A stretch of DNA of 64,000 bases from a virus. Taxonomy: Duplodnaviria > Caudoviricetes. Under the pieces are notes generated by a model. That model saw only the letters and a program-made list of their open reading frames with translations. It did not search any database and was not told where the DNA came from. Below, one piece after another: positions 2,056 to 57,785 of the stretch. A program made the translations under genes and the position numbers. The DNA is taken from positions 1 to 64,000 of IMG/VR virus record IMGVR_UViG_3300011947_000001. One strand, written 5' to 3'. Numbering within the stretch: position 1 is the first letter of the stretch; every line of letters starts with the position of its first letter.

Positions 2056-2811
2056 ATGAAATACAAAGATTATATAACTGAAAGCATTGCCAAATATGAA
2101 AGAAAGAAGGTTATCCAATTAGATGAATGCGTTAATATATTCAAGGATCGCTGTAAAAAGTATGATTTAGATAAACCATTCATTCGTGGTTATACCAGTG
2201 ATAAATCATACTTGATCGTTCAAGGGGATATTACTAAACGTATTAGTCGAACTGGTAGTAATCACGCAAATATGATCATCGATCTTAATATCGAAGATGT
2301 TAGTAAATCAAATCCACGTAGACAATATTCAACTATATTCAGCGGCCCTAAAGCTAAAGAACATGCCTTGCAATTTGGCACTAAAAGTTACGTCCTCATT
2401 CCTTATGACGACTGTTCATTTGGTTATTGCGAAGGTATTGATTTGAACTATATGGAAATGCCAGATATGGGGAATGCACCATACGGATCAGCAATTGGCC
2501 TATCTAAATTCTTAAAGTTGAATGATGTTGGTGATGAAGATATTAAATCTATGGCTGAAGAATGCATGGAGTTATCGAGTGATGAATATGCTATGAGTAA
2601 ATTTAAAAAGATGTTTGAAGGATGTGATAGCATACCAAAAACTATTGAACGTCTGAAAACTTTGTTACCATTGAATAAGTTGAAAATCAAGTTCACGAAA
2701 GATTTAAATACGCTAAAAGATACCAATTATGAAATCTGGACAAATGGTAAATGTCTATTGGTTGAACAGAACCTTTATAAAGAATTTGTGGAAAAAGTGA
2801 AAGAAAAATGA
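2056..2811 (+). CDS. putative internal virion protein, ADP-ribosyltransferase-like paralogue 1
   Basis: N-terminus MKYKDYITE; motifs PFIRG, RISRTGSNH, RRQYSTIFS, FG-x-x-x-YVLIPYD and EIWTNGKC shared with six other ORFs in the window. Confidence 0.6.
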   Translation: MKYKDYITESIAKYERKKVIQLDECVNIFKDRCKKYDLDKPFIRGYTSDKSYLIVQGDITKRISRTGSNHANMIIDLNIEDVSKSNPRRQYSTIFSGPKAKEHALQFGTKSYVLIPYDDCSFGYCEGIDLNYMEMPDMGNAPYGSAIGLSKFLKLNDVGDEDIKSMAEECMELSSDEYAMSKFKKMFEGCDSIPKTIERLKTLLPLNKLKIKFTKDLNTLKDTNYEIWTNGKCLLVEQNLYKEFVEKVKEK

Positions 2812-3521
2812 AATACAAAGATTTTCTGAATGAAAATTCAATGAGGGACTTGATCGACTTATTTTTGGAAAATTGCTCCCAATATGATCTGGATGAACCA
2901 TTTATCAGGGGAACAAAAAATTTAGGATTTATCCGCAAAGTTACCAAAAAAGAACGTGAATCTATTACTGGCTCTAATATGACGAATATCATTATTGATC
3001 ATCTTATTGGGGAACATCCAAAACGAAATCAATCGAATATATTCACAACGTATAGTGGCCGTCATCATGCAAATAGGTTTGATCATTTACACGTGATCAT
3101 TCCATTTGATAATTGTAAATTTACATATTGTGATGCCGAAGACTTCAACTATATCGAAGTTCCAGAACTGGAAGGTGAAGTTGGCGATATATCTATGATT
3201 TTATCTATCAATAACATTGAAGGTAAATCATACGATGAAATTATTAACAAGATATATGAAAAGTCGAAGAAAGCTAGTGAAAATGATTATCTAACCACTG
3301 AATTATTCAAGAACATCAAAAGCAAAGAAGATGTTGATAAACAGATGCGTCAAATATTCGACCTGAATAAATTAGGGATTAAGTTTACTGACAACTTGAA
3401 TTCACTAAAAGGTAAAGCACGTGAAATATGGACTGATGGGGATTGTATATTAGTTGATTATGCAAGAATTAAAGCTTTTAAAAAAATGATTGAAGAAAGA
3501 AAGAAAGAAAAGGATAAATAA
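2808..3521 (+). CDS. putative internal virion protein, ADP-ribosyltransferase-like paralogue 2
   Basis: MKYKDFLNE; PFIRG, RESITGSN, RNQSNIFTT, HVIIPFD, EIWTDGDC; tandem paralogue of 2056..2811 with an ATGA overlap. Confidence 0.6.
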   Translation: MKYKDFLNENSMRDLIDLFLENCSQYDLDEPFIRGTKNLGFIRKVTKKERESITGSNMTNIIIDHLIGEHPKRNQSNIFTTYSGRHHANRFDHLHVIIPFDNCKFTYCDAEDFNYIEVPELEGEVGDISMILSINNIEGKSYDEIINKIYEKSKKASENDYLTTELFKNIKSKEDVDKQMRQIFDLNKLGIKFTDNLNSLKGKAREIWTDGDCILVDYARIKAFKKMIEERKKEKDK

Positions 3522-3522
3522 A

Positions 3523-4200
3523 ATGAAATTTGCAGATTTCCTACTCACAGAAGCACCCCTACCTGATAATTGGGATAAGAAACCATTCAAGAAAGGTGCT
3601 TCGTTCAAAGAAACAGTTTCATATGCACAAGAACGTGCTGCAAAATTAGGTACTGGATCAAGTCGAATCGCTTTTGAGATTGAATACAAAGGTCGTCCAA
3701 CTGTACTAAAAGTTGCCAAGAATAAGAAAGGTATTGCACAAAACGTTGCTGAAGTTGGTTATCTTGAAGATGGATATGCTTCTGAAATGGGCCTTCTAAT
3801 TCCTATGATCGATTACGATGAAGAAAATGGGGATGATGGTGTTAAATGGATTCATATGGAAAAAGCAGATAAGATTACCGATAAAGATTTCATCAAATAT
3901 ACTGGTGGTATGACATGTAGTGGTTTGGTTGTTTATTGTTGGAATCAAGTCGCATATGGTAGTAAACGTATGCCGTATGGGATGCCAGATAAAGAATGTA
4001 TCGATAAGGTTCTAAAACACTTTGAAGATAAGGAACATCACTTAGTTAATGAATTAGTCGATTTCTTCCATAATTATGATGATGCTGGTCAAATATGGAA
4101 AGATTTACGTAATCCGAAAAACTGGGGTATGTATAAAGGACACCCAGTTATTATTGATATCGGCTTTGATGATACCACGGCGCATTTATACACCAAATAA
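3523..4200 (+). CDS. protein-kinase-like (PKL fold) protein with capsid-targeting-like N-terminus
   Basis: Start at ATG 3523 gives MKFADFLLTE; Gly-loop LGTGSSRIAF, VLKVA Lys, NVAE helix-C Glu, catalytic loop DLRNPKN, DFG-like IDIG. Confidence 0.75.
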   Translation: MKFADFLLTEAPLPDNWDKKPFKKGASFKETVSYAQERAAKLGTGSSRIAFEIEYKGRPTVLKVAKNKKGIAQNVAEVGYLEDGYASEMGLLIPMIDYDEENGDDGVKWIHMEKADKITDKDFIKYTGGMTCSGLVVYCWNQVAYGSKRMPYGMPDKECIDKVLKHFEDKEHHLVNELVDFFHNYDDAGQIWKDLRNPKNWGMYKGHPVIIDIGFDDTTAHLYTK

Positions 4201-4203
4201 TTA

Positions 4204-4229
4204 AAAAGGGAATCAATTGATTCCCTTTT
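4204..4229. terminator. bidirectional intrinsic terminator
   Basis: Perfect palindrome AAAAGGGAATCAATTGATTCCCTTTT between convergent genes. Confidence 0.8.
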
Positions 4230-4353
4230 CGTTTATTCTGTATAAAATTTATGATAATCCGAAACATCTAATGAGTTCACCATCTGCAACAGGCACTATG
4301 ATAAACGTGGATTATATCCATTAGTAATCGGTTTATAAATTAATTTCGGTATA

Positions 4354-4713
4354 TTAGATATTCCCCACACCAGTTACTTTATATAACTTACCATTACCAT
4401 CATGATAATGAATTGAGTTAATCTTATACATTTGCACGAAGTTCCCATCTGCATGATAATCAATATCTTTTCCGAATTCGATGTAATTCACTGGATCGAA
4501 ATCATATTCGAAATAATCCTTATCTTCATCTTCCAAGAACGCAATGAACGATGGTAATATTTCGATCAATTGTTCTTCTGTGCAATAAACTGATATTTCA
4601 GGGTATGAAATTCCTTGTTTACACGTGGTCGCTGTAAGACGAATTACGTAATGCTCTTTTTTTATAGGTTGTTCAATCAAAGTGTAATTTAATATTTTGT
4701 CTTCAATACTCAT
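4354..4713 (-). CDS. hypothetical protein (119 aa)
   Basis: ORF track; preceded by a near-consensus promoter. Confidence 0.75.
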   Translation of the reverse strand: MSIEDKILNYTLIEQPIKKEHYVIRLTATTCKQGISYPEISVYCTEEQLIEILPSFIAFLEDEDKDYFEYDFDPVNYIEFGKDIDYHADGNFVQMYKINSIHYHDGNGKLYKVTGVGNI

Positions 4714-4743
4714 TTATATTCATCCATATAAGCCTTGAATTGA

Positions 4744-4772
4744 ATAGTACCAAATGAAATCATATTTGTCAA
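4744..4772 (-). promoter_or_regulatory. sigma70-type early promoter
   Basis: TTGACA-17 nt-TACTAT. Confidence 0.8.
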
Positions 4773-4794
4773 AAAGGAACCATTCGGCTCCTTT

Positions 4795-5919
4795 TTATAA
4801 CGGTTTGATTTCCAAAATTTTAAATAAGTTGATTGTGCGATATACCCGCTTATTTTCCTTTTTAGATAGGTTATTATCAATAACAACTAAAGTGTCAATC
4901 TTTTGTGTAACTTGCGAATCTGAACCTAATAAAGTAAATTCACCAGTACGAATATCCCCATTCAACTTACGATATTTACAATATACCGTAAAATCAGGAA
5001 TCTTTTCAGCTAAAGCCATAAGTGTACGTTTAGAATACTCATTTCTAGCCATAACATGGGCTTCTTTCTCCACGGCTTGATTTGAATTACCCAACTTTGC
5101 TTTTTTAGTATCTGCAACTTCTCTTGATGGAAATTTCTTATCCATTTCCTTAGAAAGTTTTTGTTCAGCATCAGCATCAGTTACCCGACTAAAATTCTTG
5201 ACACTTTTATAACCATCAGAATCCACTTTTGTAGATGCACGGGTTTTCTTAAACATTTCATTTTCTAATTCTTTTTCTATATTAGATAATGTTTTATCAA
5301 CCTTTTTTTCATCTTCTTTAGATTGTTGACTTTGAGTTTTGCCATTGAATGTGACTTCTGGTTGTTCTGAATCTTTTTCTTTTTGTCGATCGCTAATTTC
5401 TTTTGCACGTTGATCACGAAGTTCTTTTTCTTTTGTTGCTAGTTCTTGTTGTTCTTTGCGCTTCTGTTCAGCATATTCGCGCATTTTATCAGCGAATGTT
5501 TGTGGTTTGGGCTTATCTTGATCTTCCGGTTTTTTACCAAATGTATACTGGGTATTCAGATTACTAGATTGTGAGTCTTCTTTCCCGATTTTTTTCTTTA
5601 ATCCAAGACGAACAGCTAAAGATATTTCTTTCTCTTTTGGGTTAACTTCTTGTTCTTGTGAAACATCATTTGGATTATTACGAAGTACCATTTCTTCGAT
5701 TTTAGAATCTTTTTTTGAATCCTTATCATCCGCTTTGATGATTTTAGTACCACCAGATTTAAAATGATTATCATCAGTAATTTTCTTGCGCAATTCATCT
5801 TCGGTAAAATGTTTGAGTACATCATACCCATACAATCCCTTTTCCTTGATTGATTCAATAAAATCATCAACGCTGATTTGTTCATCAACTGATTCAGATA
5901 AGTATACTGCAAAATTCAT
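4795..5919 (-). CDS. highly charged (K/E/D/Q) putative internal head protein with a small C-terminal beta domain
   Basis: MNFAVYLSE N-terminus; long charged low-complexity middle; C-terminal VYCKYRKLNGDIRTGEF resembles DUF2693/WYL_2-type SH3 folds (weak). Confidence 0.55.
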   Translation of the reverse strand: MNFAVYLSESVDEQISVDDFIESIKEKGLYGYDVLKHFTEDELRKKITDDNHFKSGGTKIIKADDKDSKKDSKIEEMVLRNNPNDVSQEQEVNPKEKEISLAVRLGLKKKIGKEDSQSSNLNTQYTFGKKPEDQDKPKPQTFADKMREYAEQKRKEQQELATKEKELRDQRAKEISDRQKEKDSEQPEVTFNGKTQSQQSKEDEKKVDKTLSNIEKELENEMFKKTRASTKVDSDGYKSVKNFSRVTDADAEQKLSKEMDKKFPSREVADTKKAKLGNSNQAVEKEAHVMARNEYSKRTLMALAEKIPDFTVYCKYRKLNGDIRTGEFTLLGSDSQVTQKIDTLVVIDNNLSKKENKRVYRTINLFKILEIKPL

Positions 5920-5938
5920 CGTTAAATCTTCTTTATAA

Positions 5939-6529
5939 TTATTCTAGGTTTCTTCTAATATGCTTCACTTTATAAACGTTATTTGATATTTCTAATTCAT
6001 CCATACCATCAGCAAGTTTTAACTTGAATGATGGAGATATAACATAAGCGATTAATCCATTATCAAGTCGTGTCTTTATTGCTTTGAATTTACCATCTAA
6101 TATGTAAATCGAATAACCTTCTTTTGGCAAGCCAATTGTATTCTTAATATTATTTAAGCTTCCAGTAAAACCAACAACATAATTGTGATCATGTATATTA
6201 TTAGTTGCTATACAATAAACTGGTTTATGGTTATATTCCCTTGCGTTAAAAAGAAGGTCGTCAACTGTTTTATTTGGAAGTGTGCTATATATAAGTGAAT
6301 CAATTGAATCTTCTAAATCAAAATCTACTGGATAATGTTTATCTACATAATCTTTTACTTTTTGAAAAAGCACATCATTATTATAACGATGAAAATTTCT
6401 GATGATAAGTTTATCATCCCGCTTTACATATATATTCTTATTCTTAATATATAAAGGTTCATCTACAAAAGCCGAAAGTTCATTTTCGATTTTTGTAGAT
6501 GACTCGATTAAAAACTGTGAATATTTCAT
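5939..6529 (-). CDS. putative internal virion protein, possibly a degenerate member of the ART-like family
   Basis: MKYSQFLIE; EPLY, SLIYST and YILDGKFKAI echo family motifs, but the Arg and Glu are missing; TTAAATA upstream (6551-6557). Confidence 0.45.
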   Translation of the reverse strand: MKYSQFLIESSTKIENELSAFVDEPLYIKNKNIYVKRDDKLIIRNFHRYNNDVLFQKVKDYVDKHYPVDFDLEDSIDSLIYSTLPNKTVDDLLFNAREYNHKPVYCIATNNIHDHNYVVGFTGSLNNIKNTIGLPKEGYSIYILDGKFKAIKTRLDNGLIAYVISPSFKLKLADGMDELEISNNVYKVKHIRRNLE

Positions 6530-6562
6530 TAAATAAAACTCTTTTTATTATATTTAATGAAG

Positions 6563-7345
6563 TTATCCCATAAATGGTTGGATTGGTAGACTGTACTGAT
6601 CTTTAAGTTTAAGTTCTAGTTCAGAAATTTCCTGTAGAGCTTGTTGTAATAATGCTTCCCCATTCAACATTCCGCCACCCACCAATGGAATATTACTAAA
6701 TTTCCCAATATTTGTCGCCCACTGCTTTTTAATTAAAGCTGTAGTATATTGCTTTAACCAAGGATCATTATATACTGAACCAACATCATCTGGATCATCA
6801 TATTTAAAACAATCCAATCCAATCACATCACCTACTTTCGCTTTATTCCATTTGAAATCTGGAATAGTTAATGATTCCTGATGTACTTTATATACAGTGA
6901 CACGAATTAAAGAATTGTTGAGAATCGAATTGAAAGTCGAAAGGTAGTTTTGAGTTACCGCATAATTTGTAAGACCAGCACCCATTCCACTTGATGATGA
7001 ACTATATGTTTGGGAAATTAAATCAGAAAAATAAGCTTGCATTTGCAAATTTCCTGTATTTCCAGAACCAAACATAGTAGGGTCACTTGGTAAATATACA
7101 CCAATTACTGATAATATACCTGATGGCAACTTAAATTTTTGATTATCAATTTCATCTTGGGTTAATCTATGAACATAAACTTCTCTATATGCACCATCCA
7201 TATGAAAATTAATAAATATATCCAAAGCATCATCAATTCGATCATCTATTTGATCTTCAGTGATATTAATTCGAACAACTGGTGCACCCAAAGCACGTAA
7301 ACAATATTGTGCTAATGTGAACCTATCATTGATCATTTTACGCAT
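6563..7345 (-). CDS. gp13: neck protein gp13
   Basis: YCLRALGAPVVRINITEDQIDDRIDDAL...WLKQYTTALIKKQWATNIGKFSNIPLVGGGMLNG is typical T4-like gp13. Confidence 0.92.
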   Translation of the reverse strand: MRKMINDRFTLAQYCLRALGAPVVRINITEDQIDDRIDDALDIFINFHMDGAYREVYVHRLTQDEIDNQKFKLPSGILSVIGVYLPSDPTMFGSGNTGNLQMQAYFSDLISQTYSSSSSGMGAGLTNYAVTQNYLSTFNSILNNSLIRVTVYKVHQESLTIPDFKWNKAKVGDVIGLDCFKYDDPDDVGSVYNDPWLKQYTTALIKKQWATNIGKFSNIPLVGGGMLNGEALLQQALQEISELELKLKDQYSLPIQPFMG

Positions 7346-7530
7346 TTAATTAATCCCTTCCCCATTAGTAAATCTTCAGCCGACTTTAAAATTTTAATTT
7401 CATTGCAGCTTTTATATTTCTTATCATGAATAATATTCTGAATATCTTTAATATCCTGCAAACAGGCATCAATATCTATATTATATTTTTTACAAAGAAA
7501 TTTAATTTCATCATCGCTTAAAGTTTTCAT
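7333..7530 (-). CDS. hypothetical protein (65 aa)
   Basis: ORF overlapping both neighbours in the late operon. Confidence 0.65.
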   Translation of the reverse strand: MKTLSDDEIKFLCKKYNIDIDACLQDIKDIQNIIHDKKYKSCNEIKILKSAEDLLMGKGLIKCVK

Positions 7531-7772
7531 TTTTCACTTCTCAAGTAGTCTAATACCAAATCTAACTTCTTCTGAAGATCATCTACTTTGTTTTCTAACA
7601 TTTCGTTTTTCTGAATCAGTTCGTCTAATTTTAATTCACGCTGCTTCATTTCGGCTGCTTTTGTGCGTCTGGCCTTGGCCGCATTAAATGCGGCCGTATC
7701 CTTATCAACTATTGCCCCATTGTTACGCTTCACTAATGAATCGTAACCCTGTACTTTTGCATCTTTTATCAT
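7527..7772 (-). CDS. small coiled-coil protein of the type that follows VrlC-like genes in T4-like phages
   Basis: KVQGYDSLVKRNNGAIVDKD...LENKVDDLQKKLDLVL. Confidence 0.65.
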   Translation of the reverse strand: MIKDAKVQGYDSLVKRNNGAIVDKDTAAFNAAKARRTKAAEMKQRELKLDELIQKNEMLENKVDDLQKKLDLVLDYLRSEK

Positions 7773-13405: not shown

Positions 13406-13409
13406 TTTA

Positions 13410-17967: not shown

Positions 17968-18261
17968 TTAACCCCCAATTTTCACATTGCCTGATCCAAC
18001 CATAACCTTAGCACCACATCCTGTAGGATCACCTAAGCGTCCAGCTTGACGGCCATTTATTATTACAGTTGATGATCCTGATGCTAAAACAGGCGGATGA
18101 CACCCAGCATGGGGACAGCAATGTGATACAAATTGATCCCCTACTCTCATTGCGCCTTTCCCATTCGTAATCACATTCCCTGATGCACTACTACAAGGTG
18201 AAGGGGGAAAGCATCCATGCCCCGACTGTTGATCACCTAAGCGTGATGCTGGCTTACCCAT
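17968..18261 (-). CDS. PAAR-repeat spike tip protein (gp5.4-like)
   Basis: MGKPASRLGD...HGCFPP...GSSTVIINGRQAGRLGDPTGCG. Confidence 0.93.
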   Translation of the reverse strand: MGKPASRLGDQQSGHGCFPPSPCSSASGNVITNGKGAMRVGDQFVSHCCPHAGCHPPVLASGSSTVIINGRQAGRLGDPTGCGAKVMVGSGNVKIGG

Positions 18262-44398: not shown

Positions 44399-44722
44399 TT
44401 AATTGGTATTATCTAGAAAATATATAATACTACCAATATCAGTATCATAGTTTGAACGTAGTGATTGTTTAATCACATAATTAAAATCTGTTAAAATATC
44501 TAATACAATAGGATTCAGCTTTTTAAAGATTTCATTTTTATCCCCAATGAATCCATCATCAGCATTATCACCAAAGTTATAATACACAACAACAATATCT
44601 TTCGCTTCAAGAATAGATCGAATTGAGATTTTGTTTTCTTTAGCAGCAGTCACTATTGCGCTTTCTACTTCTGGCTTAATTGCTTTTGCATTCTTTCCAA
44701 CTAGAAAGTCTTTAATTTTCAT
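44399..44722 (-). CDS. hypothetical protein (107 aa) with partial capsid-targeting-like N-terminus
   Basis: MKIKDFL (no Glu at position 9-10); TTAAATA at 44752-44758. Confidence 0.65.
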   Translation of the reverse strand: MKIKDFLVGKNAKAIKPEVESAIVTAAKENKISIRSILEAKDIVVVYYNFGDNADDGFIGDKNEIFKKLNPIVLDILTDFNYVIKQSLRSNYDTDIGSIIYFLDNTN

Positions 44723-45490: not shown

Positions 45491-46222
45491 ATGAATTTTC
45501 AGGAATTTTTATTAACTGAATCGATCAATGACAAGGGCCGTTTAAAAGCCCTGATGGTTATTGGTTCTGCTGGTGCGGGGAAATCGTATACGATTTCACA
45601 GTTGAATGGTGTCGTAACGCCTAAGATCGTGAATACGGATCGCTTCCTAGAGTTCTACGCTAAAAAGATTGGTGTCAAAGCTACACCTGATAACTGGCGT
45701 TCCTTGTTCCGTGAAAAGACCAAGGCTACTACAGAGAAAATGACCTACAACTATCTGAATGGTTTACTACCACTATTCATTGACAGTACCAGTAACAACG
45801 TATCAAACATTATTTCACGTGCTGCTGTGCTTGAATCTATTGGGTATGATGTCGGTTATGTATTCGTCAATGCCAACATCGAAACAGTGTTGAAACGTGT
45901 ACAGGATCGCAATTCTAAGATTGATCGTGAAGTTGATCTGGATTTCGTTAAAAAAGTACATTCTAAAGTGAATGATGATGTTGAATTCCTTCGCAATAAA
46001 GGTAATTTCTTCTTAGAAATTAACAACTCTGAAGGTGAACTTACAAACGATATCATCAATTCTGTATTCAAGAAAGCCCAAAGTTTCTTCAGTGGTGAAC
46101 TTAAAAATCCAATCGGGAAACGCATTATTTCAGAAATGGAAGAATCCAAGCAAAAATATCTGGTTCCTGAAGTTTACAGTGAAGAAGATTTGAAAAAGAA
46201 AGTTGAACGCTGGTACAAATAA
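45491..46222 (+). CDS. zeta-toxin/AAA_33-like P-loop kinase with capsid-targeting-like N-terminus
   Basis: MNFQEFLLTE; GSAGAGKS, IVNTD, FIDST, LKRVQDR; TTAAATA at 45436-45442. Confidence 0.78.
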   Translation: MNFQEFLLTESINDKGRLKALMVIGSAGAGKSYTISQLNGVVTPKIVNTDRFLEFYAKKIGVKATPDNWRSLFREKTKATTEKMTYNYLNGLLPLFIDSTSNNVSNIISRAAVLESIGYDVGYVFVNANIETVLKRVQDRNSKIDREVDLDFVKKVHSKVNDDVEFLRNKGNFFLEINNSEGELTNDIINSVFKKAQSFFSGELKNPIGKRIISEMEESKQKYLVPEVYSEEDLKKKVERWYK

Positions 46223-47783: not shown

Positions 47784-47807
47784 TATGAGTTATTCCACAC
47801 GATATTC

Positions 47808-48291: not shown

Positions 48292-48304
48292 ATATCACCA
48301 AATA

Positions 48305-48961
48305 TTATTCTTCAGTTGAATCCTCAACATCTTCAGTCAAAACTTCAACTTCGATCTGTTCAACTTCTTCCAGTAAGATACCCAATGCTTGTTCACGCAA
48401 GAAACGTGCATTGTTGGTTTGTGGTTCTTGATGACGCAATTCAATTGATACGTCTTCAGTCAAAGAACGGAATTCGAATGAACGGCCGCCAATCTTAGAA
48501 TAGAATTGAGTTTTGATATTGCCAAATGTAGCATTACCAACTTTTACCTTTTTGTTGTATTCGATCCAGTCGCATTCTTTAGATGTTCCCCAAAGATACG
48601 CATTCTGACCACCTTGTGGAATGATCAATACAGAATCTTGCTTGTATTTGTAGCCAAGGCGGAAAATAAATTTATCGAATTCATTATCAGTTAAACCCGT
48701 GTTCTGAACAAAGAAAGAAAGTTCTTTTACAACTGTTTCTTTTCCTTCTGCATCCACTTCGACATAGTTTCCCTGCACTTGTGTATAGGACAAACCTTTT
48801 TTTGAAAGAAGCCCAGCTAATTCAGCATTACGTTTACGTTTTTCTTGCTTGGTTGCGTCCCCACGGAATGCAGTCAAGATTGCGCAACGGGATTCTTCAG
48901 TTTTACGAAGAACTTTTGTTAAAGAAGATTCAGCCAAGTATTGTGTGAATTCATTAGACAT
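48305..48961 (-). CDS. putative internal virion protein, DUF3293-like domain
   Basis: MSNEFTQYLAE; AILTAFRG...RN-x-x-L...V-x-GNYVE...ELSFFV...YKQDSVL; TTAAATA at 49004-49010. Confidence 0.6.
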   Translation of the reverse strand: MSNEFTQYLAESSLTKVLRKTEESRCAILTAFRGDATKQEKRKRNAELAGLLSKKGLSYTQVQGNYVEVDAEGKETVVKELSFFVQNTGLTDNEFDKFIFRLGYKYKQDSVLIIPQGGQNAYLWGTSKECDWIEYNKKVKVGNATFGNIKTQFYSKIGGRSFEFRSLTEDVSIELRHQEPQTNNARFLREQALGILLEEVEQIEVEVLTEDVEDSTEE

Positions 48962-49019
48962 TTTAATTAACCTGTTAATAATTTAGTATTCAAATAATAA
49001 CATTATTTAATCAAATTTG

Positions 49020-51593: not shown

Positions 51594-52195
51594 TGTGATT
51601 CCAACCACTTTGTAACAAGTTCTTCAGATGCAGTCTTTGAATTAAAAACCCAGCAACCGTCCATAAGAATATAGTGATCAGGGAAATCCACGACCGAAAC
51701 CTTACATTTACGCATATATTGACCCCATGAATCACGATCTACAAATTGACGCTTATATCCAAGATCATGAACATAATCATATAACTTATCACATTGCGCT
51801 TGAAAATTATCATAGTCCAAAAGGAACCAGCGACCTTCATGTAAATCACCCTTCACCCCAAAAATATTATTATACTCAAAGGTATATAAAGACGATAAAT
51901 CTAGGTGCTTCAAATCTTCAGTCGAATAAGCTCGAATATTTGGAGCAACATGTTTTTCATAAAATTTAGTGATATAGTAATTGTCTGTTATATCAATTAT
52001 ATAATCATCAATCGATTCAGGTTTAATAATGAATGCTTGTTTACCATTATAATAAAAGTTTGTTGATTGAACATATGGTTCAGTATTATCCAGTGATTCA
52101 ATTATAGAAACTGCCGATAATCCACTCACTTCCTTAAAATGAATTCTTTGAGTTTCAATAGTTCTTTTTTTACTTTCTATTTTTAGCTTATTCAT
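51590..52195 (-). CDS. hypothetical protein (201 aa)
   Basis: ORF track; no clear SD at ATG 52195. Confidence 0.65.
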   Translation of the reverse strand: MNKLKIESKKRTIETQRIHFKEVSGLSAVSIIESLDNTEPYVQSTNFYYNGKQAFIIKPESIDDYIIDITDNYYITKFYEKHVAPNIRAYSTEDLKHLDLSSLYTFEYNNIFGVKGDLHEGRWFLLDYDNFQAQCDKLYDYVHDLGYKRQFVDRDSWGQYMRKCKVSVVDFPDHYILMDGCWVFNSKTASEELVTKWLESQ

Positions 52196-52214
52196 AGAAT
52201 GAACACATATGGTA

Positions 52215-52371
52215 ACTATATTTGCGAAGTAAACTTATACAGCTATCATCAGCTAAAATTCACTTCCAAATATAATTGATCTCAACATCGTGGTAATTTT
52301 AACATCATCACGATGTTGAGATCACCGCTTCCAATCACCCAAGGGTTTAGTTAAACGGTTCGCTGTTTACG
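52215..52371 (-). ncRNA. candidate structured RNA or leader with two abutting long hairpins
   Basis: 16-bp perfect stem (52277-52292 / 52309-52324) and an 18-bp bulged stem (52215-52233 / 52259-52276), downstream of a TTGACA-18-TATAAT promoter at 52378-52407. Confidence 0.4.
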
Positions 52372-52403
52372 AATTTGATTATATAATAACAAATATGAGT
52401 TTG

Positions 52404-52721
52404 TCAAACTTTTTTAAGGGTTGTTTTATATAACCAAGCGTTATTATGAATTTGAGGATCACGATATAATTCTACTGATTCAACAGTATAGCCATCAACT
52501 TTATCCCCAATTACATGTGGGGGAGCTATTTCTAAATACCCTTCTTCTGGATAATCACCCGACCAAATCCACATAGAAGTATCACGCATTTTCTGAATCA
52601 GATTTTCAGGTATAGGAATATAACCAAAGTCATTTAACCAGTCTTCATCACAACCTGACAACCATTGAATAGATACTAAATCTTTTTCACTAACAAGATC
52701 ATATTTGTAATTAATCGACAT
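52404..52721 (-). CDS. hypothetical protein (105 aa)
   Basis: ORF track; GGTG SD. Confidence 0.7.
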   Translation of the reverse strand: MSINYKYDLVSEKDLVSIQWLSGCDEDWLNDFGYIPIPENLIQKMRDTSMWIWSGDYPEEGYLEIAPPHVIGDKVDGYTVESVELYRDPQIHNNAWLYKTTLKKV

Positions 52722-52780
52722 TTCATTTCACCATTTTAATTTAAATAAGAACATAATATATATTTAACAGTGTAGATACA

Positions 52781-53587
52781 ATGAAATACGTTGATTTTTT
52801 AATCGAAAAGAAAAAATACGATAATACCGATGAAATCGATATAGAAGAATTCAAAAAAATATACGCTAATCTTGATAACAAGAAGCCGTTCTACCGTGGA
52901 ATGAAAAGTGCCCCTAGTGATATCATGATTGTCGATGGTTCCAAACGAGAACGAAAATCATTGGACATCGGGAACCATTACACCGTTCTGTTTGATGAAA
53001 TGAATAAAGATTTACCAAACCGAAAAAATGCAGTCTTTTTTTCTGGTAGTAACAACGTTTCATTCTTTGGCACAGTTTATTATGTGTTTCCATTCAACAA
53101 TACCAAGATCGTATGTGTTAATAAAAAGGATATGTGGGGAGTACCAGTTTATACTCCATTGAAATCTAAAAGAAAATCATTTATCGATATGCAAGATGTT
53201 ATCAATATATTTGACACGCTAAATATTCCTGATGATAGTTTATCTAGTATCGTCAGTGGAATCAAAAAGATTGTGAAAAATTTTGTTGATAAATATCCAC
53301 AAAAAGTAGATCATGAAATGATTGAATTCATTGATGCAACTCATATCAATAAGTTATTACATGACGATAAATATGACGAAGTATTAGCTATTATGTTTGA
53401 ATATAATGATGCTACTGTTGAAAGTCAGCTTAAACAAATGTTTAACTATGAAAAATTGAAGTTCAGTGTATATAATTCATCTAAAGATTTACCTGATAGC
53501 TATCTACCCTATGAATATTGGATTGATGGTAAAGCACTGATTATCGATAAATCATTATTCGATTCCATTAGAAAAGACCTTGAATAA
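52781..53587 (+). CDS. putative internal virion protein, ADP-ribosyltransferase-like paralogue 3
   Basis: MKYVDFLIE; PFYRG, RKSLDIGNHYT, RKNAVFFS, FGTVYYVFPF, EYWIDGK; TTAAATA at 52741-52747. Confidence 0.62.
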   Translation: MKYVDFLIEKKKYDNTDEIDIEEFKKIYANLDNKKPFYRGMKSAPSDIMIVDGSKRERKSLDIGNHYTVLFDEMNKDLPNRKNAVFFSGSNNVSFFGTVYYVFPFNNTKIVCVNKKDMWGVPVYTPLKSKRKSFIDMQDVINIFDTLNIPDDSLSSIVSGIKKIVKNFVDKYPQKVDHEMIEFIDATHINKLLHDDKYDEVLAIMFEYNDATVESQLKQMFNYEKLKFSVYNSSKDLPDSYLPYEYWIDGKALIIDKSLFDSIRKDLE

Positions 53588-53596
53588 GGTCTTTTC
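53571..53596. terminator. bidirectional intrinsic terminator
   Basis: GAAAAGACCTT-GAAT-AAGGTCTTTTC. Confidence 0.75.
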
Positions 53597-53598
53597 TT

Positions 53599-53985
53599 TT
53601 ATAATCCCATTTCTTTAGTAATTGGTATGCATATCGCCATGACCTGCTTACATTGCATTACTGTGAACATACCAATATGACAATCCTTAGCTTCGATTCT
53701 CATTTTTTCTGACAGCATCTTATATGCTTCAGATCGTGACATTTTTCCAGATTTCCAAAGCTTATCAAATACATTATGCGCCAAAAGCTTATTCTTTCTT
53801 AGTTCCGCATTAGCCAATCGCCCTAATGGATTATCTGTATTTGGATGACAACCCACATACGCACCACATGGATTACAAAGATAGAAGTTTTTTTCATGTA
53901 GCTTTGATAAATGTGGATATATTACATCACCTTTCACCAAAGATGATTTCTGATCACAATAAGGACAGATAGGATGCTTAGACAT
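53599..53985 (-). CDS. zinc-finger protein (DUF3268-like)
   Basis: Start refined to MSKHPICPYC; CNPCGAYVGCH...PLGRLANAELR...AH...FD-x-LWK...CHIG. Confidence 0.8.
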   Translation of the reverse strand: MSKHPICPYCDQKSSLVKGDVIYPHLSKLHEKNFYLCNPCGAYVGCHPNTDNPLGRLANAELRKNKLLAHNVFDKLWKSGKMSRSEAYKMLSEKMRIEAKDCHIGMFTVMQCKQVMAICIPITKEMGL

Positions 53986-54001
53986 ATGATTTATAAAATA
54001 T

Positions 54002-54031
54002 AAAATGGTATGATCGGAACCATACCATTTT
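54002..54031 (-). terminator. terminator of the four-gene ART-like operon
   Basis: AAAATGGTATG-8 nt-CATACCATTTT. Confidence 0.7.
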
Positions 54032-54049
54032 TGTATACACAAAGTCAAA

Positions 54050-55030
54050 TTAGACTTTCTTTTTGATTTCTTCCCATTTGTCATAAGCCACGGCAACACA
54101 TTTGTCGCCAAACCAACATTCAATATCTTCATGATCCGTGTGTTGATTCAAACGTTCAGTTTTGATCAATTCAAACCCTAAGTCATACGGATCATATACA
54201 TCGCGAATAACTTTTTCTATTTCATCGCGGGAAAGTTCTTCATAACCAAACATTCTAACAAGAATAGCATATTTTGCCATATTACTATCTTCCAATGCAT
54301 CAGCAAGGGCATCTGCATCATTAGCCAAATCAAATCCAAAATGTGTTTCTGTATCATTCACAATATCTTTGATTGCATCTTCATCAGCTTCATAATCTTC
54401 ATCATAATCATCATCATCTTCATCATGCGAATCGTGATATATATCTTCAGCATATTGCTTTATTTCCATAAGACCGTCGCGATGATCACGCACCAACACA
54501 TTAAGAATATCATAATAATTAGAATCGCTGATATTCATGAATTCGAACACACGGTTCCATTGATTGATTTTTAGATCAAAATCACCAATTTCTATATCTG
54601 TAGTCCAAATATCTTCAGTACCAATATAACCAATATCAACACCTTTGAATGGCAAGATCACATACAATTTTCCGTAGTGTTCAGCCGTCTTTTTAGATGT
54701 CGAACAGATGATTGATTCAGAACGTAACGGGTAATTCTTATAATTAGCCCCAGTTTTGAGAATTTCATCAATGATCACGGTATAATAGTTAGTCGTATTC
54801 TTAGATGTACGTTTTCCCTTGGAACCATCAATGATATAGAAATCACCCTCATCTTCAAACCCACGATATAGATAGTTCTTGACATCACATTTATCTTTGA
54901 TCAACTTGACGATTTCATCTTCATTGTCGATCTTCTTGCGATAATTTGTCATGTCCTTGAACATTGGATGCGGGTCTTTATCTTCTTTTTTATCTGATTC
55001 AATGATCAGTTTGTATTGTTTAAATTTCAT
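54050..55030 (-). CDS. ADP-ribosyltransferase-like paralogue 4 (with poly-Asp/Glu insert)
   Basis: MKFKQYKLIIE; YLYRG, RTSKNTTNYYT, PLRSESIICSTSKKTAEHYG, YVILPF, ECWFGDKC. Confidence 0.68.
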   Translation of the reverse strand: MKFKQYKLIIESDKKEDKDPHPMFKDMTNYRKKIDNEDEIVKLIKDKCDVKNYLYRGFEDEGDFYIIDGSKGKRTSKNTTNYYTVIIDEILKTGANYKNYPLRSESIICSTSKKTAEHYGKLYVILPFKGVDIGYIGTEDIWTTDIEIGDFDLKINQWNRVFEFMNISDSNYYDILNVLVRDHRDGLMEIKQYAEDIYHDSHDEDDDDYDEDYEADEDAIKDIVNDTETHFGFDLANDADALADALEDSNMAKYAILVRMFGYEELSRDEIEKVIRDVYDPYDLGFELIKTERLNQHTDHEDIECWFGDKCVAVAYDKWEEIKKKV

Positions 55031-55039
55031 TAGATAACC

Positions 55040-56167
55040 TTAGTAAAAAATAAAATATTCATAATCTTTATTATATTTGTCATTATGGATTTTAAAACCA
55101 TCAATATCTAAATATTCAACAAACTCATCAAAATCAGCGTATTTCAGATATTCGATTATTGTGTCAGTTTCTTCAATATCTTCCAATTTAGAGTCGAGAA
55201 GTTCTTCAAAATCAGCCTTTCCACTTGACTTAACATGCTTTGCGAATAACTTAAAGAAATCTTCGGCCGAAATTTTATCTGCCAATGTTCCACCAATTTC
55301 AATAATTTTCTTTTCTTTCAGATTGATTAATTCTGGTTCATAATCATCATCTGCATATTCCACATATTCATATGCATACTTATCAACATTGTAATGTTCA
55401 TCCTTTTTAAACAAAATAATATGATCTTCATCAAGATTGTGTAATATATAATCTAACTTTTCATATTGTTCCGATTCAATCAGAAGGCACTTACCCCCAA
55501 TCCAAACTTCACCCTCACTACCTTTATAGTCTTTACTTTGAATAAACTTGAACCCTAATTTATCTAAATCATACATTTCACGGATTTGTTGTTCAACGTT
55601 TTCTTGAGATTTTAAGTTGCCCCCAAAGTGATCTTTAAATTCGTCTTCAGACATACTTTCGATTTCTTCAGCTATATTACCAATACTACCTGAAGGTATA
55701 CCAGCTTTTGAAAAAGTATCATTCATGGAACTCAAACTCTTACTACCAAGAGCTAATTTAACCCTTAAATCCCAAATATCTTCTGATGGTACAACCCCAA
55801 TCCATGTATCGTCATATGGAATTACGTTATATACAGTCCCATATTTCTTTGCATAGTTTCTATCTGTTGATGCAATGATAGAAGCTGAACGCAATGGGTA
55901 ATCTTTGTTCTTTTCTGCAATTAATTCATCAAAAATTAAAGTATAATGATTCGATGTATTTTGTGACTTACGCTTGCCTTTCTGACCTTCAATGATATTG
56001 TATGTTCGATGCTTACTTTTGGTTCCCCGATAAATATCAGCTTTGTTAGCCATACAATGTTTTTTGTATATTTCAACCATTTTAGCAAATGTGATATCTT
56101 CATAATAAGCAGCATCATTATCAGCAGCTTCATTTAACACTAAAATTTTATAAGTATTGTATTTCAT
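55040..56167 (-). CDS. ADP-ribosyltransferase-like paralogue 5 (acidic C-terminal extension of about 130 aa)
   Basis: MKYNTYKILVLNE; IYRG, RKSQNTSNHYT, PLRSASIIASTDRNYAKKYG, YNVIPYD, EGEVWIGGKC. Confidence 0.68.
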   Translation of the reverse strand: MKYNTYKILVLNEAADNDAAYYEDITFAKMVEIYKKHCMANKADIYRGTKSKHRTYNIIEGQKGKRKSQNTSNHYTLIFDELIAEKNKDYPLRSASIIASTDRNYAKKYGTVYNVIPYDDTWIGVVPSEDIWDLRVKLALGSKSLSSMNDTFSKAGIPSGSIGNIAEEIESMSEDEFKDHFGGNLKSQENVEQQIREMYDLDKLGFKFIQSKDYKGSEGEVWIGGKCLLIESEQYEKLDYILHNLDEDHIILFKKDEHYNVDKYAYEYVEYADDDYEPELINLKEKKIIEIGGTLADKISAEDFFKLFAKHVKSSGKADFEELLDSKLEDIEETDTIIEYLKYADFDEFVEYLDIDGFKIHNDKYNKDYEYFIFY

Positions 56168-56952
56168 TATTCGAATTTCCCATCTTTAAGCATTTTTTTA
56201 TATGTATCTAACTCAATAGCGACACATTTGCCACTAAACCAAACTTCGTGAGCACCACTAAGATCAAGTTCGTCGATTTTTCCAAACTGAAACTTCAAAA
56301 CCTTAATAGGATCATATGCCACGGCTAGAACTTTTTCGACGACATCTTTCTTATCAGCCTTACTAAACGGCATTATTTTCAAATCTTGATATTCTTTTTT
56401 GAATGCCTGATATAAATTCTTTTCTTCATAATCTGTTATATCACCTTCATCCTGTTCAAGAACTTTGGATAAATCCGAAACGATCTGTTTGAATGTTTCT
56501 GGTTCCTTTGAAAATCTATTCAAATATTCATTGAATGATCTTAGACGACCATGTTTATTTCCAAGGACAACGACGGCATCCCAAATATCATCTGATACAC
56601 ACCTACCCATCTGAATACCATCATATGGAAAGATTGCATAAGTAGTACCATACATCAAAGCAGTTGCACTCCTAGTAGCACACATTAAAGACTTAGAACG
56701 CAATGGTGCATTAATTTTCTTTAATTGTTCATCTATAATTAAAGTGTAATGATTAGTTGTATCAATTGATTTTCTTGTACGTTCTTCACCATGTAACGCA
56801 AGAAATTTACCAGATTTCTTGATGCCGCGATAAAGCGGCTTTTTCAAATCAATATTTTTACAATTCTTTTTAATCAGTTCAATTGCTTGTTCTTCGCTAA
56901 TTTCCTTTTTGTAATCAGCATAGGCTTCGTTTATAAACTCAATAAACTTCAT
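56167..56952 (-). CDS. ADP-ribosyltransferase-like paralogue 6
   Basis: MKFIEFINE; PLYRG, RKSIDTTNHYT, PLRSKSLMCAT...ALMYG, YAIFPYD, HEVWFSGKC. Confidence 0.68.
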   Translation of the reverse strand: MKFIEFINEAYADYKKEISEEQAIELIKKNCKNIDLKKPLYRGIKKSGKFLALHGEERTRKSIDTTNHYTLIIDEQLKKINAPLRSKSLMCATRSATALMYGTTYAIFPYDGIQMGRCVSDDIWDAVVVLGNKHGRLRSFNEYLNRFSKEPETFKQIVSDLSKVLEQDEGDITDYEEKNLYQAFKKEYQDLKIMPFSKADKKDVVEKVLAVAYDPIKVLKFQFGKIDELDLSGAHEVWFSGKCVAIELDTYKKMLKDGKFE

Positions 56953-57785
56953 TCGAATTTCCCATTTCTTATCATCATTTTAAATTCTGTAATCTCAATA
57001 GCAACACATTTACCCCCAAACCAGAATTCATGTTCGGTATCAAGTTCATCGATTTCTAATTCCTTATACGTACCAAATTCAAATTCCAATGAATGTTCAG
57101 GATCATAAGCCTGTTCTAGAACCCCTTCGACAACATCTTTCTTATCGACTTCATCCCATTCTTCATCATCACCCCATTCTTCCCACGTATCCTTGAATGC
57201 AGCATATATTTGACCAGCCCAACCCTTAGCGCCATCATTTGAATCATCATTAAGAAATTTTGTGATTGCATTTACAATATCGCTGTATGACTTTGGATCA
57301 GACACAACATCATTCAAGTAATTGTTGATGTCATCAATCGTACCTCTTATATCACCCAATGCTATTCTCGTATGCCAAATATCAAAATGTGGACATTTGC
57401 CAATTTCAGTATCATCGTATGGAAAAATTACGAACGCATCACCATAGTTATATGTATAAGATAAGTCATTGGTACAAATTAAAGATTTTCCACGAAATGG
57501 AACCCTATTCCCATACTTCGAATTAAGAAAATGATCAATAATCAGGGTATAGTGATTGCTGGTATTTTGAGATTTTCGACTTCCTTTATCAGCCTGTATT
57601 GAATAAAAATCTTCCCCATATTTGCGTTTCATACCACGGTATAATGGCTTTTTAATGTTTACATTCTTACAATGAGTCTTGATCAGTTTAATCGCTTCTT
57701 CTTCAGAAATAGTGTTTTTATAACTTGGTTCATCCAGAACTGGTTTCTTTCCGCTTGTTTCCAGTAGGAATGTTTTGTATTTCAT
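56949..57785 (-). CDS. ADP-ribosyltransferase-like paralogue 7
   Basis: Start refined to ATG 57785 (MKYKTFLLE); PLYRG, RKSQNTSNHYT, PFRGKSLICTN...YG, FVIFPYD, HEFWFGGKC; TTAAATA at 57864-57870. Confidence 0.68.
   Translation of the reverse strand: MKYKTFLLETSGKKPVLDEPSYKNTISEEEAIKLIKTHCKNVNIKKPLYRGMKRKYGEDFYSIQADKGSRKSQNTSNHYTLIIDHFLNSKYGNRVPFRGKSLICTNDLSYTYNYGDAFVIFPYDDTEIGKCPHFDIWHTRIALGDIRGTIDDINNYLNDVVSDPKSYSDIVNAITKFLNDDSNDGAKGWAGQIYAAFKDTWEEWGDDEEWDEVDKKDVVEGVLEQAYDPEHSLEFEFGTYKELEIDELDTEHEFWFGGKCVAIEITEFKMMIRNGKFE

What the first reader, a model, noticed from the sequence alone, without database searches (positions are those of the whole stretch)
2056..57785. Expanded family of seven (possibly eight) putative virion-packaged ADP-ribosyltransferase-fold proteins
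Seen: ORFs at 2056, 2808, 52781 (+) and 54050, 55040, 56167, 56949 (-) share an ordered motif set: (F/L/I)(Y/I)RG ... R-x-S-x-x-x-x-N-(H/Y)-x-x-x-x-x-D ... R-x-x-S-x-x-(C/A/F)-(S/A/T)-T ... (Y/F)G ... Y-x-I-x-P(Y/F) ... E-x-W-x-x-G-x-C. They lie in a tandem pair, a four-gene operon and a singleton. All begin with M-K-(F/Y)-x-x-...-E and have TTAAATA upstream of the first gene. Established: R-S-E clade ARTs (cholera-toxin-like toxins; T4 Alt, ModA, ModB) have a beta1 Arg in Y-R-G, an STS-like beta2 motif and a late catalytic Glu, and T4 Alt is packaged and injected. Inference: this is an Alt-independent, duplicated and diversified set of injected ARTs. The variable acidic inserts and extensions (poly-D in 54050, about 130 extra aa in 55040) could set target specificity, for example RNA polymerase, defence proteins or nucleic acids. 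I do not recognise the family as described.
Basis: partly seen in the sequence, partly recalled or inferred. Interest (0 to 1): 0.88.

Follow-up and report, generated by a model that had tools for sequence, protein, structure and literature searches.

The report
Head-packaged ART-fold phage protein family
A fragment of a giant T4-related phage carries eleven diverged copies (seven in this window) of an unannotated protein that is predicted to have the fold of ADP-ribosylating enzymes and starts with a T4-style "load me into the head" tag, so these are probably enzymes injected with the DNA, although no activity has been shown.

Summary
Seven ORFs in the window, and 11 in the 82-kb record, are paralogues with the stated motifs. 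The family spans about 4,300 protein clusters in public data and has no Pfam, NCBIfam or PADLOC match.

Packaging is well supported:
- The N-terminus MK[FY]xx[FY][LI]xE matches the T4 capsid-targeting sequence (IPII/IPIII MKTYQEFIAE) and the gp21 cleavage rule L/I-x-E.
- Eight or nine unrelated proteins in the record carry the same leader, including a zeta-type kinase and two ART-PolyVal proteins.
- In the cultured relative Atu_ph07, all 13 genes starting with that phage's leader are in the published virion proteome (P = 1.6e-10).

The scan has already met this family on other DNA, with the same reading. It is a new family within a known theme.

The parts
2022..2027 (+). TAAATA late-promoter-like motif (CTTAAATA), 34 nt upstream of the first gene of unit 1
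2056..2811 (+). family member, 251 aa, leader MKYKDYITE
   Evidence: E 1.6e-87; AF2 model m279c2b900127
2808..3521 (+). family member, 237 aa, leader MKYKDFLNE
   Evidence: E 2.7e-77
3523..4200 (+). non-family cargo with the same leader (MKFADFLLTE); phrog_4301; protein-kinase-like motifs visible in the sequence; last gene of unit 1
   Evidence: leader score 14.9 against a background maximum of 7.1
4204..4229 (+). terminator-like hairpin ending unit 1
52742..52747 (+). TAAATA motif (TTTAAATA), 39 nt upstream of the singleton
52781..53587 (+). family member, 268 aa, singleton unit
   Evidence: E 1.6e-88
53570..53597 (+). terminator-like hairpin (12-bp stem) ending the singleton unit
57818..57823 (-). 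TAAATA motif (TCTAAATA), 38 nt upstream of the four-gene operon; it lies inside the longer mechanical ORF, which argues for the start at 57785
56949..57785 (-). family member, 278 aa, first gene of the four-gene operon, leader MKYKTFLLE
   Evidence: E 2e-106
56167..56952 (-). family member, 261 aa; reference for residue numbering; AF2 model m60d450568c72 (pLDDT 95.3)
55040..56167 (-). family member, 375 aa, with a roughly 130-aa C-terminal extension of unknown fold
54050..55030 (-). family member, 326 aa, with a 131-aa highly acidic insert (charge -29)
54002..54031 (-). terminator-like hairpin (13-bp stem) ending the four-gene operon
5939..6529 (-). non-family protein with the leader (MKYSQFLIE), no family assignment; TAAATA at -27
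   Evidence: score 22.8
4795..5919 (-). non-family protein with the leader (MNFAVYLSE), downstream of 5939-6529
   Evidence: score 12.5
45491..46222 (+). zeta-toxin-family P-loop kinase with the leader (MNFQEFLLTE); the same module is fused to the family domain in Atu_ph07 gp53
   Evidence: (Zeta_toxin 7.5e-10)
58634..59230 (+). non-family protein with the leader (MSFADFLTE)
   Evidence: score 22.7
62137..62604 (+). non-family protein with the leader (MKFKDYLAE); TAAATA at -36 and -50
   Evidence: (score 24.5)

Best explanation
These genes encode a large, so far unannotated family of ADP-ribosyltransferase-superfamily (ART-fold) proteins that this T4-related jumbo phage loads into its head and delivers into the host with its DNA. 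The proposed sequence of events is as follows. The genes are transcribed late from (T/C)TAAATA promoters in small self-terminated units. The 9-residue leader MK[FY]xx[FY][LI]xE docks the protein onto the prohead scaffolding core, as the T4 capsid-targeting sequence does. A gp21-type prohead protease cuts after Glu9 (the L/I-x-E rule). The mature 25-41-kDa proteins stay in the head and are ejected on infection. In the host each paralogue most likely uses NAD+ to ADP-ribosylate a different target. The conserved core (Arg42 on beta1, Glu236 on beta5, plus R60, S62, N67, D74, R85 and D122) would do the chemistry, and the hypervariable, mostly acidic helical insert between beta4 and beta5 (61-131 aa) would choose the target. 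Shown: paralogy, the leader and its spread to unrelated cargo, virion presence of homologues, and fold-level similarity. Inferred: cleavage, injection, NAD+ use and targets.
For: - Family: 15 invariant columns; 11 copies, E down to 2e-106; 4,322 representative clusters at E<=1e-3; invariant R60, P109, D122, E236, W238; R42 99%.
- No dead copies: all 11 paralogues keep R42, R60, D74, R85, D122, E236 and W238.
- Leader: it matches T4 IPII/IPIII MKTYQEFIAE once one residue is deleted, and it keeps L/I-x-E. PMC9026906 reports that the first 10 residues of IPIII suffice for packaging and that gp21 cuts after L/I-x-E.
- Leader on other cargo: a PSSM built only from foreign homologues scores 8-9 non-family N-termini at 8.8-24.5 bits, against a maximum of 7.1 for 393 internal Met 9-mers. 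These proteins include a Zeta_toxin kinase and two ART-PolyVal proteins; a SAM lyase has a register-shifted version.
- Leader as a separate module: hhalign of the family against ART-PolyVal aligns only the 11-aa leader.
- Leader varies by lineage: Atu_ph07 uses M[RK]WxQL[TN]E and RsoM2USA uses MTTFKEYLTE.
- Virion data: Atu_ph07 gp53-gp63 were all detected by ESI-MS/MS (PMC6102473 Table S5). All 13 Atu_ph07 genes with the leader pattern are in that proteome, with identities fixed by exact MW matches (hypergeometric 1.6e-10; the two non-family ones P = 0.033).
- Protease: gp21-type Peptidase_S77 is present in both cultured relatives.
- Late motif: (P = 0.0012).
- Nearest named family: DUF2441 in the ESM Atlas. 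DUF2441 is in Pfam's ART clan (PMC7955679) and BC2332-like is SCOP d.166.1.6 (PMC3000352).
- Local motif: the best hhalign segment against ModA, ModB and their profile is the beta1 catalytic-Arg motif.
Against: - Foldseek finds no PDB match at E<=1e-3.
- No member of the 125-sequence alignment hits any ART-clan Pfam model even at E<=1, and the profile finds no ART among PDB sequences.
- There is no [QE]xE and no conserved STS.
- Six further near-invariant polar residues (R60, S62, N67, D74, R85, D122) belong to no classical ART signature and could mark a different active site or chemistry.
- I could not inspect model coordinates, so juxtaposition of Arg42 and Glu236 in a cleft rests on strand order only.
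- The 82-kb fragment (about 22% of the genome) contains no prohead protease gene.
- There is no proteome for this phage itself.
- MS shows presence in virions, not location in the head, cleavage or ejection.
Confidence: 0.6

Rival explanations
1. The proteins are head-packaged and ART-fold but do not transfer ADP-ribose. They act as binders or inhibitors of host defence proteins (as T4 IPI* blocks GmrSD), or they carry out other chemistry on the ART scaffold, such as NADase, a Tpt1-like phosphotransfer or NAD+ phosphorolysis.
For: There is no [QE]xE or STS. The closest structures include non-classical ART-fold proteins of unknown or different function: BC2332/DUF2441, AvrPphF and Tpt1. An extra invariant R/S/N/D/R/D constellation is not explained by ART signatures. 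T4 internal proteins are diverse non-enzymatic counter-defence factors that share only the targeting sequence (PMC3012670).
Against: Fourteen near-invariant positions, mostly polar, are kept across 125 sequences of about 30% identity and in all 11 paralogues. That is typical of enzymes and not of target-specific binders. Arg on beta1 and Glu on beta5 are the ART catalytic positions. NADase or Tpt1-like chemistry would still be NAD+-dependent, so this shades into the main explanation.
Confidence: 0.25
2. The proteins are structural or scaffolding components of a large head, comparable to an inner body or core (as with the paralogous inner-body proteins of phiKZ-like phages). They are abundant in virions but have no effector role after ejection.
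For: There are many paralogues per genome (11, 13 and 4). All were detected in Atu_ph07 virions with good coverage. They share a core-targeting leader with other head proteins.
Against: An enzyme-like invariant polar constellation sits on an enzyme fold. The same leader heads clear enzymes (zeta-type kinase, ART-PolyVal, possibly a SAM lyase). One homologue is fused to a zeta-toxin kinase. The proteins are mostly acidic (pI 4.5-6), unlike DNA-condensing internal proteins. Sequence diversification is concentrated in one surface insert, as expected for target recognition.
Confidence: 0.1
3. The ART-fold resemblance is a chance similarity of a small alpha/beta arrangement, and the family has an unrelated new fold and function.
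Confidence: 0.1

Closest known systems
Phage T4 Alt (head-packaged, injected ADP-ribosyltransferase)
   Same: It is a late-made protein of a T4-type phage that is incorporated into the prohead core, processed by the prohead protease and ejected with the DNA. It has the ART-superfamily fold with Arg on beta1.
   Different: There is no detectable sequence or profile similarity. Alt is a 682-aa single-copy R-S-ExE enzyme. This family has 240-380-aa proteins in 4-13 paralogues per genome, with a single Glu and a different conserved motif set.
T4 capsid-targeting sequence system (IPI, IPII, IPIII and gp21 protease)
   Same: It has a roughly 10-residue N-terminal leader of the same pattern (T4 MKTYQEFIAE against MK[FY]xx[FY][LI]xE here and MTTFKEYLTE in RsoM2USA) ending in L/I-x-E followed by a small residue. 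The leader is shared by otherwise unrelated cargo proteins, and the cargo set is hypervariable.
   Different: The leader is one residue shorter here. The cargo is mostly enzymes on an ART-like fold rather than small basic proteins. There are about 20 tagged genes in 82 kb, against a handful in T4.
T4 ModA/ModB (Pfam PF26816, R-S-E ARTs)
   Same: They are of similar size. The helix plus beta1 segment 'P-x-[YW]-R-G-[IM]' is the one segment that hhalign aligns.
   Different: Probability is only 9-16%. There is no Pfam hit. ModA/ModB have ExE (E171-x-E173) and are early, non-packaged proteins without the leader.
DUF2441 / BC2332-like (PDB 2aua; Pfam ART clan, SCOP d.166.1.6)
   Different: The DUF2441 HMM does not match the record. 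DUF2441 proteins are about 150-210 aa and lack the helical insert and the leader. Their function is unknown.
ART-PolyVal domains of phage polyvalent proteins
   Same: They are ART-fold domains predicted to be packaged in phage heads and injected. This phage also encodes two of them with the same leader.
   Different: The family does not match the ART-PolyVal HMM, and hhalign aligns only the leader. These proteins stand alone rather than being domains of giant polyproteins or MuF fusions.
AcrIF11 (phage anti-CRISPR ADP-ribosyltransferase, PDB 6kyf)
   Different: There is no sequence similarity. AcrIF11 is made after infection and is not known to be packaged.

Membership tests
ART superfamily (fold level) | Split beta-sheet core whose best structural neighbours are ART-fold proteins, with the match covering the core domain | tested here: met
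ART superfamily (fold level) | Catalytic residues from beta1, beta2 and beta5 juxtaposed around an NAD+-binding cleft | not testable with these tools
   Model coordinates are not exposed. By strand order alone, R42 lies on the first aligned core strand (40-44) and E236 at the start of the penultimate strand (236-239).
ART superfamily (sequence level) | Significant HMM or profile match to an ART-clan family | tested here: not met
   No ART-clan Pfam hit for any of the 7 paralogues or any of 125 members at E<=1. The profile against PDB sequences finds no ART. DUF2441 HMM: no match.
R-S-E clade of ARTs | Arg on beta1 in an aromatic-R-[GA] context | tested here: met
   [YWVF]41-R42 (99%)-G43 (98%) on strand 40-44. 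It aligns locally to ModA 'PLWRG' and ModB 'QLYRG'.
R-S-E clade of ARTs | [ST]-[ST]-[ST] motif at the end of beta2 | tested here: inconclusive
   S88 (93%) starts strand 89-92. At the strand end, C91 is 73%, position 92 is A/T/S/G and position 93 is T/N/S/G. The residues are small and polar, but this is not a conserved STS.
R-S-E clade of ARTs | [QE]-x-E on beta5 | tested here: not met
   A single invariant E236 is followed by x-W238. Position 234 is E 18%, D 16%, A 11%, S 11%.
T4 Alt / ModA / ModB families | Detectable homology over the catalytic domain | tested here: not met
   hhalign against Alt: probability 0.3%. Against ModA, ModB and their 7-sequence profile: 9-16%, 14-44 columns only. 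No PF26816 hit.
T4-type capsid-targeted cargo | N-terminal leader of about 10 residues resembling the IPIII targeting sequence and ending in L/I-x-E | tested here: met
   Position 7 is L 86% or I 10%, E9 is 98%, and position 10 is mostly S, A, N or G. The rule comes from PMC9026906.
T4-type capsid-targeted cargo | The same leader on unrelated proteins of the same phage | tested here: met
   Eight or nine non-family proteins. hhalign aligns only the leader between the family and ART-PolyVal.
T4-type capsid-targeted cargo | A gp21-type (Peptidase_S77) prohead protease in the genome | tested here: inconclusive
   None in the 82-kb fragment, which is about 22% of the genome. Present over the Pfam cut-off in Atu_ph07 and RsoM2USA, which carry the family.
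T4-type capsid-targeted cargo | Protein physically present in virions | tested here: inconclusive
   There is no proteome for this phage. In Atu_ph07 all 13 leader-bearing genes (11 of them family members) are in the published virion MS list (PMC6102473 Table S5).
T4-type capsid-targeted cargo | Leader removed by the protease; protein ejected into the host | not testable with these tools
   This needs N-terminal or semi-tryptic peptide MS and infection assays.

The most novel reading that the evidence does not exclude
This is a previously unrecognised clade of the ART superfamily, marked by Arg-beta1 and Glu-beta5 plus its own R-x-S/N/D/R/D constellation and invisible to all current profile libraries. 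It would be the dominant pre-loaded cargo of a large group of T4-related jumbo phages. Each genome would inject a battery of 4-13 active NAD+-dependent modifiers, each aimed at a different host target (defence systems, RNA polymerase, nucleic acids) by a swappable acidic insert, together with co-packaged kinases, SAM lyase and ART-PolyVal enzymes.
Probability: 0.4. Interest if true: 0.8.

Novelty: new variant of a known kind. Interest (0 to 1): 0.62.

Why it matters
Head-packaged ARTs were known from T4 Alt and predicted to be widespread in myoviruses (PMC9503650). This family is missed by Pfam, NCBIfam, PHROG function labels and PADLOC, yet it comprises thousands of clusters and is the most expanded gene family in these jumbo-phage genomes. 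The cultured phage Atu_ph07 carries 13 copies that are already shown to be in virions, so the idea is directly testable. If the proteins are active, they form a large unexplored reservoir of host-modifying enzymes and probable counter-defence factors. They would also be a natural example of one catalytic core re-aimed by a variable insert. The leader also gives a simple sequence rule for listing the injected proteome of T4-related giant phages from sequence alone.

Tried and rejected
- Foldseek against PDB, both models: no match at E<=1e-3.
- Family profile against PDB sequences: only spurious coiled-coil rows.
- Pfam, NCBIfam and PADLOC on the paralogues: nothing meaningful.
- All 125 members scanned individually against Pfam at E<=1: no recurrent family and no ART-clan family.
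- DUF2441 HMM on the record: no match. The control genomes also gave none, so I obtained no DUF2441 sequences for a profile-profile test. 'relatives' is not available for a virus record.
- hhalign against T4 Alt: nothing. Against ART-PolyVal: only the leader.
- megablast of 6 kb against the phage collection: no near relative.
- The search for related loci with the alignment failed, and with one protein gave a single 15-kb contig.
- Search for fused forms of 658-2000 aa: none, which is weak evidence because the candidate list was crowded.
- RsoM2USA proteomics covered only 10 gel bands and is uninformative for the family.
- Supplements of PMC9503650 are not held, so I could not check whether that survey lists Atu_ph07 gp53-63 as ARTs. 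Its text does not mention Atu_ph07 and names Bacillus phage G (at least 10 ARTs) as the richest phage.
- A simple accession-to-gp mapping for Atu_ph07 fails beyond the array. I corrected it by +53 using the gp481 anchor and exact molecular weights.

Full report
**What is there**

The window is the first 64 kb of an 82,102-bp IMG/VR virus record that CheckV rates about 22% complete. It is 33% G+C. It carries T4-type genes: a baseplate wedge protein (phrog_219), topoisomerase II large subunit, NrdA, and a weak GHKL ATPase at the 5' end.

They align end to end with 15 invariant columns. All hit the first 250 positions of phrog_12810, which has no assigned function. A profile of the seven recovers them at E 2e-106 to 3e-77. 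It also finds four more copies beyond the window, at record 65153-65881(-), 67029-67757(-), 78084-78830(+) and 79584-80285(+).

The family is very large. A profile search of 1.84 billion representative proteins gives 4,322 clusters at E<=1e-3 and 2,759 at E<=1e-10. In a 125-sequence alignment (A2, about 30% identity to the reference), R60, P109, D122, E236 and W238 are invariant. R42, G43, S62, N67, D74, P83, R85, S88, I90 and G102 are at least 93% conserved. Numbering follows the 56167-56952 protein. All 11 paralogues keep R42, R60, D74, R85, D122, E236 and W238, so none looks like a dead copy.

**Gene organisation**

- Unit 1: 2056, 2808 and the non-family gene 3523-4200, ending at a hairpin at 4204-4229.
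- Unit 2: the singleton 52781-53587, ending at a hairpin at 53570-53597.
- Unit 3: four genes on the minus strand from 57785 to 54050, ending at a hairpin at 54031-54002.

Each unit has (T/C)TAAATA 34-39 nt before its first start codon. TAAATA is under-represented in the record (75 and 66 sites per strand, against about 113 expected). Even so, it lies within -60..-16 of 11 of 20 leader-bearing genes against 17 of 94 other ORFs (Fisher P = 0.0012). The leader genes that lack it are mostly internal operon genes. The T4 late promoter consensus is TATAAATA (established knowledge), so late transcription is a reasonable inference.

**The N-terminal leader is a T4-type capsid-targeting sequence**

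- *Conservation.* The first nine residues follow M-[KN]-[FY]-x-x-[FY]-[LI]-x-E (E9 98%, L/I7 96%), followed by a small residue. Among the 11 paralogues this is the most conserved segment: 54% mean identity, against 32% and 30% in the core and 21% in the insert.
- *Match to T4.* Translating the T4 genes by reference gives IPIII and IPII MKTYQEFIAE|A and IPI MKTFKEF.... With one residue removed, the T4 sequence matches this leader position for position. PMC9026906 states that the first 10 residues of IPIII suffice for incorporation into the head and that gp21 cleaves after L/I-x-E.
- *Spread to unrelated proteins.* A PSSM built only from the 118 foreign homologues scores the N-termini of eight or nine non-family proteins of this record at 8.8-24.5 bits. 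The maximum over 393 internal Met 9-mers is 7.1. Those proteins include a Zeta_toxin-family kinase (45491-46222) and two ART-PolyVal proteins (record 70772-72657). An S-adenosylmethionine lyase (48305-48961) has a register-shifted version of the leader.
- *A separate module.* hhalign of the family profile against an ART-PolyVal protein aligns the 11-residue leader and nothing else.
- *Co-variation with lineage.* Atu_ph07 homologues start M[RK]WxQL[TN]E. RsoM2USA homologues start MTTFKEYLTE, MTFKAFLQE or MKLEDLFE.

**Experimental support through homologues**

Agrobacterium phage Atu_ph07 (490 kb) has 13 family copies, 12 of them in one region at 41-50 kb. RsoM2USA has 4. Both genomes encode a T4 gp21-type Peptidase_S77 above Pfam's cut-off (also Table S3 of PMC6102473, gp204).

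The published ESI-MS/MS virion proteome of Atu_ph07 (131 of 714 proteins) lists gp53 to gp63, which are exactly the array. Sizes match one for one, with 3-31 unique peptides each.

I then scanned the Atu_ph07 genome for ATG-[KR-type codon]-TGG-N6-YTN-NNN-GAR. There were 13 hits, and none for the reversed-pattern control. Ten are array members. One is the distant family copy. Two are non-family genes. I calibrated the paper's gp numbering with the gp481 anchor and with molecular weights that agree to within 0.01 kDa. These three are gp408, gp381 and gp482, and all are in the MS table.

So 13 of 13 leader-bearing genes are virion proteins (hypergeometric 1.6e-10). The paralogues are not independent, but the two non-family genes alone give P = 0.033. 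This is the strongest evidence that the leader marks virion cargo.

**Fold**

An AlphaFold2 model from the seven paralogues (pLDDT 81) and a second from the 125-sequence alignment (pLDDT 95.3, pTM 0.89) agree.

- Foldseek finds nothing significant in the PDB.
- BC2332-like is SCOP d.166.1.6 within the ADP-ribosylation fold (PMC3000352). It probably belongs to DUF2441, which is in Pfam's ART clan (PMC7955679) and is the nearest named family in the ESM Atlas both by features (0.82) and by structure (TM 0.40/0.47).

**Active site**

The aligned ranges start at residues 32-38 and end at 247-250. The first core strand is therefore 40-44, carrying R42-G43. The last two are 236-239, starting with E236, and 242-247. 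These are the positions of the beta1 His/Arg and the beta5 Glu in ARTs (PMC7955679 for the triad scheme).

The only segment hhalign aligns to T4 ModA, ModB and a ModA/ModB profile is the helix plus 'P-x-[YW]-R-G' of beta1. Probability is only 9-16%.

Three observations weigh against R-S-E membership:
- There is no [QE]xE. Position 234 is unconserved.
- Positions 92-93 at the end of beta2 are merely small or polar.
- The closest structures are mostly H-Y-E-type.

The extra near-invariant residues R60, S62, N67, D74, R85 and D122 match no classical ART signature. I could not check 3D juxtaposition because coordinates are not exposed. NAD+-dependent chemistry is therefore an inference, at about 0.5.

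**Diversification**

The region between beta4 and beta5 (residues 137-220) is a four-helix insert. It varies from 61 to 131 residues, is the least conserved part (21% identity) and is mostly acidic (down to -29 in 54050).

Two paralogues (55040, and 66612 beyond the window) have C-terminal extensions of about 130 aa that are only weakly similar to each other. Extended forms of about 370-382 aa recur among the metagenomic homologues.

In Atu_ph07, gp53 fuses the family domain to a Zeta_toxin P-loop kinase, and gp54 is a tandem duplication of the domain. In this phage the zeta-type kinase is a separate leader-tagged gene, so the two modules appear to be functionally linked cargo.

**Comparison with what is known, and novelty**

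Functionally the closest analogue is T4 Alt together with the T4 internal-protein/CTS system. By fold it is the ART superfamily. By sequence it belongs to no described family: Pfam, NCBIfam and PADLOC give nothing, and the PHROG is labelled unknown.

The Aravind-lab surveys predict that head-packaged ARTs are common in myoviruses and jumbo phages. They name Bacillus phage G, with at least 10 ARTs, as the extreme case. Atu_ph07 is not mentioned in that survey's main text, and its supplements are not held. So this family appears to have been missed, though I cannot be certain.

Earlier follow-up notes of this scan on other genomes describe what seems to be the same family and reach the same reading. 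I reached mine before reading them.

I class it as a new variant (a new family) of a known kind.

Noticed in passing
window 3523-4200 (+): A leader-tagged protein (MKFADFLLTE, phrog_4301) is co-transcribed with two family members. Protein-kinase-like motifs can be read directly in the sequence (GTGSSR, VLKVAK, DLRNPKN, IDIG). No Pfam, NCBIfam or PADLOC hit.
   Followed up: partly
window 45491-46222 (+): A leader-tagged Zeta_toxin-family P-loop kinase (Pfam 7.5e-10). It matches phrog_12810 positions 260-461, which is the module fused to the family domain in Atu_ph07 gp53 (a Rosetta-stone link).
   Followed up: yes
window 48305-48961 (-): An S-adenosylmethionine lyase family protein (PF23780, 4.9e-14) whose N-terminus MSNEFTQYLAES looks like a register-shifted leader. 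If packaged, it would be a pre-formed anti-restriction enzyme.
   Followed up: partly
L003:6775-8654 (-) = record 70772-72657, beyond the window: Two tandem leader-tagged proteins with bona fide ART-PolyVal domains (Pfam 3e-26 and 2.9e-23, two matched stretches each). The second also has a weak DUF3990 hit.
   Followed up: partly
window 5939-6529 (-), 4795-5919 (-), 58634-59230 (+), 62137-62604 (+), 44399-44722 (-): Five more leader-bearing proteins with no family assignment. 44399 has the weakest leader (8.8 bits) and lacks the Glu.
   Followed up: partly
window 56949-57854 (-): The longest ORF starts at 57854, but the leader Met is at 57785 and the TAAATA motif (57818-57823) lies inside the extension. 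The true start is very probably 57785.
   Followed up: yes
window 53599-54132 (-): A 177-aa ORF with CxxC...CxxC zinc-ribbon-like motifs overlaps the 3' end of 54050-55030. The operon terminator (54031-54002) lies inside it, so its real start is probably further downstream.
   Followed up: no
window 3-1550 (-): An ORF that is open at the window edge, with a weak GHKL (HATPase_c) match. It is possibly rIIA-like, as in T4-type phages.
   Followed up: no
window 17968-18261 (-): A 97-aa ORF next to the baseplate wedge genes. By eye its N-terminus resembles PAAR-type spike-tip proteins. Not tested.
   Followed up: no
whole record: TAAATA is under-represented (75 and 66 sites per strand, against about 113 expected from base composition), as expected if the hexamer acts as a promoter signal and is avoided elsewhere.
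   Followed up: partly
Atu_ph07 MF403008.1 (L001, L009, L010): The gp numbers of PMC6102473 equal GenBank accession order for gp1-gp63 but are shifted by +53 around 290-350 kb. Anyone mapping the MS table onto the record needs anchors or molecular weights.
   Followed up: yes
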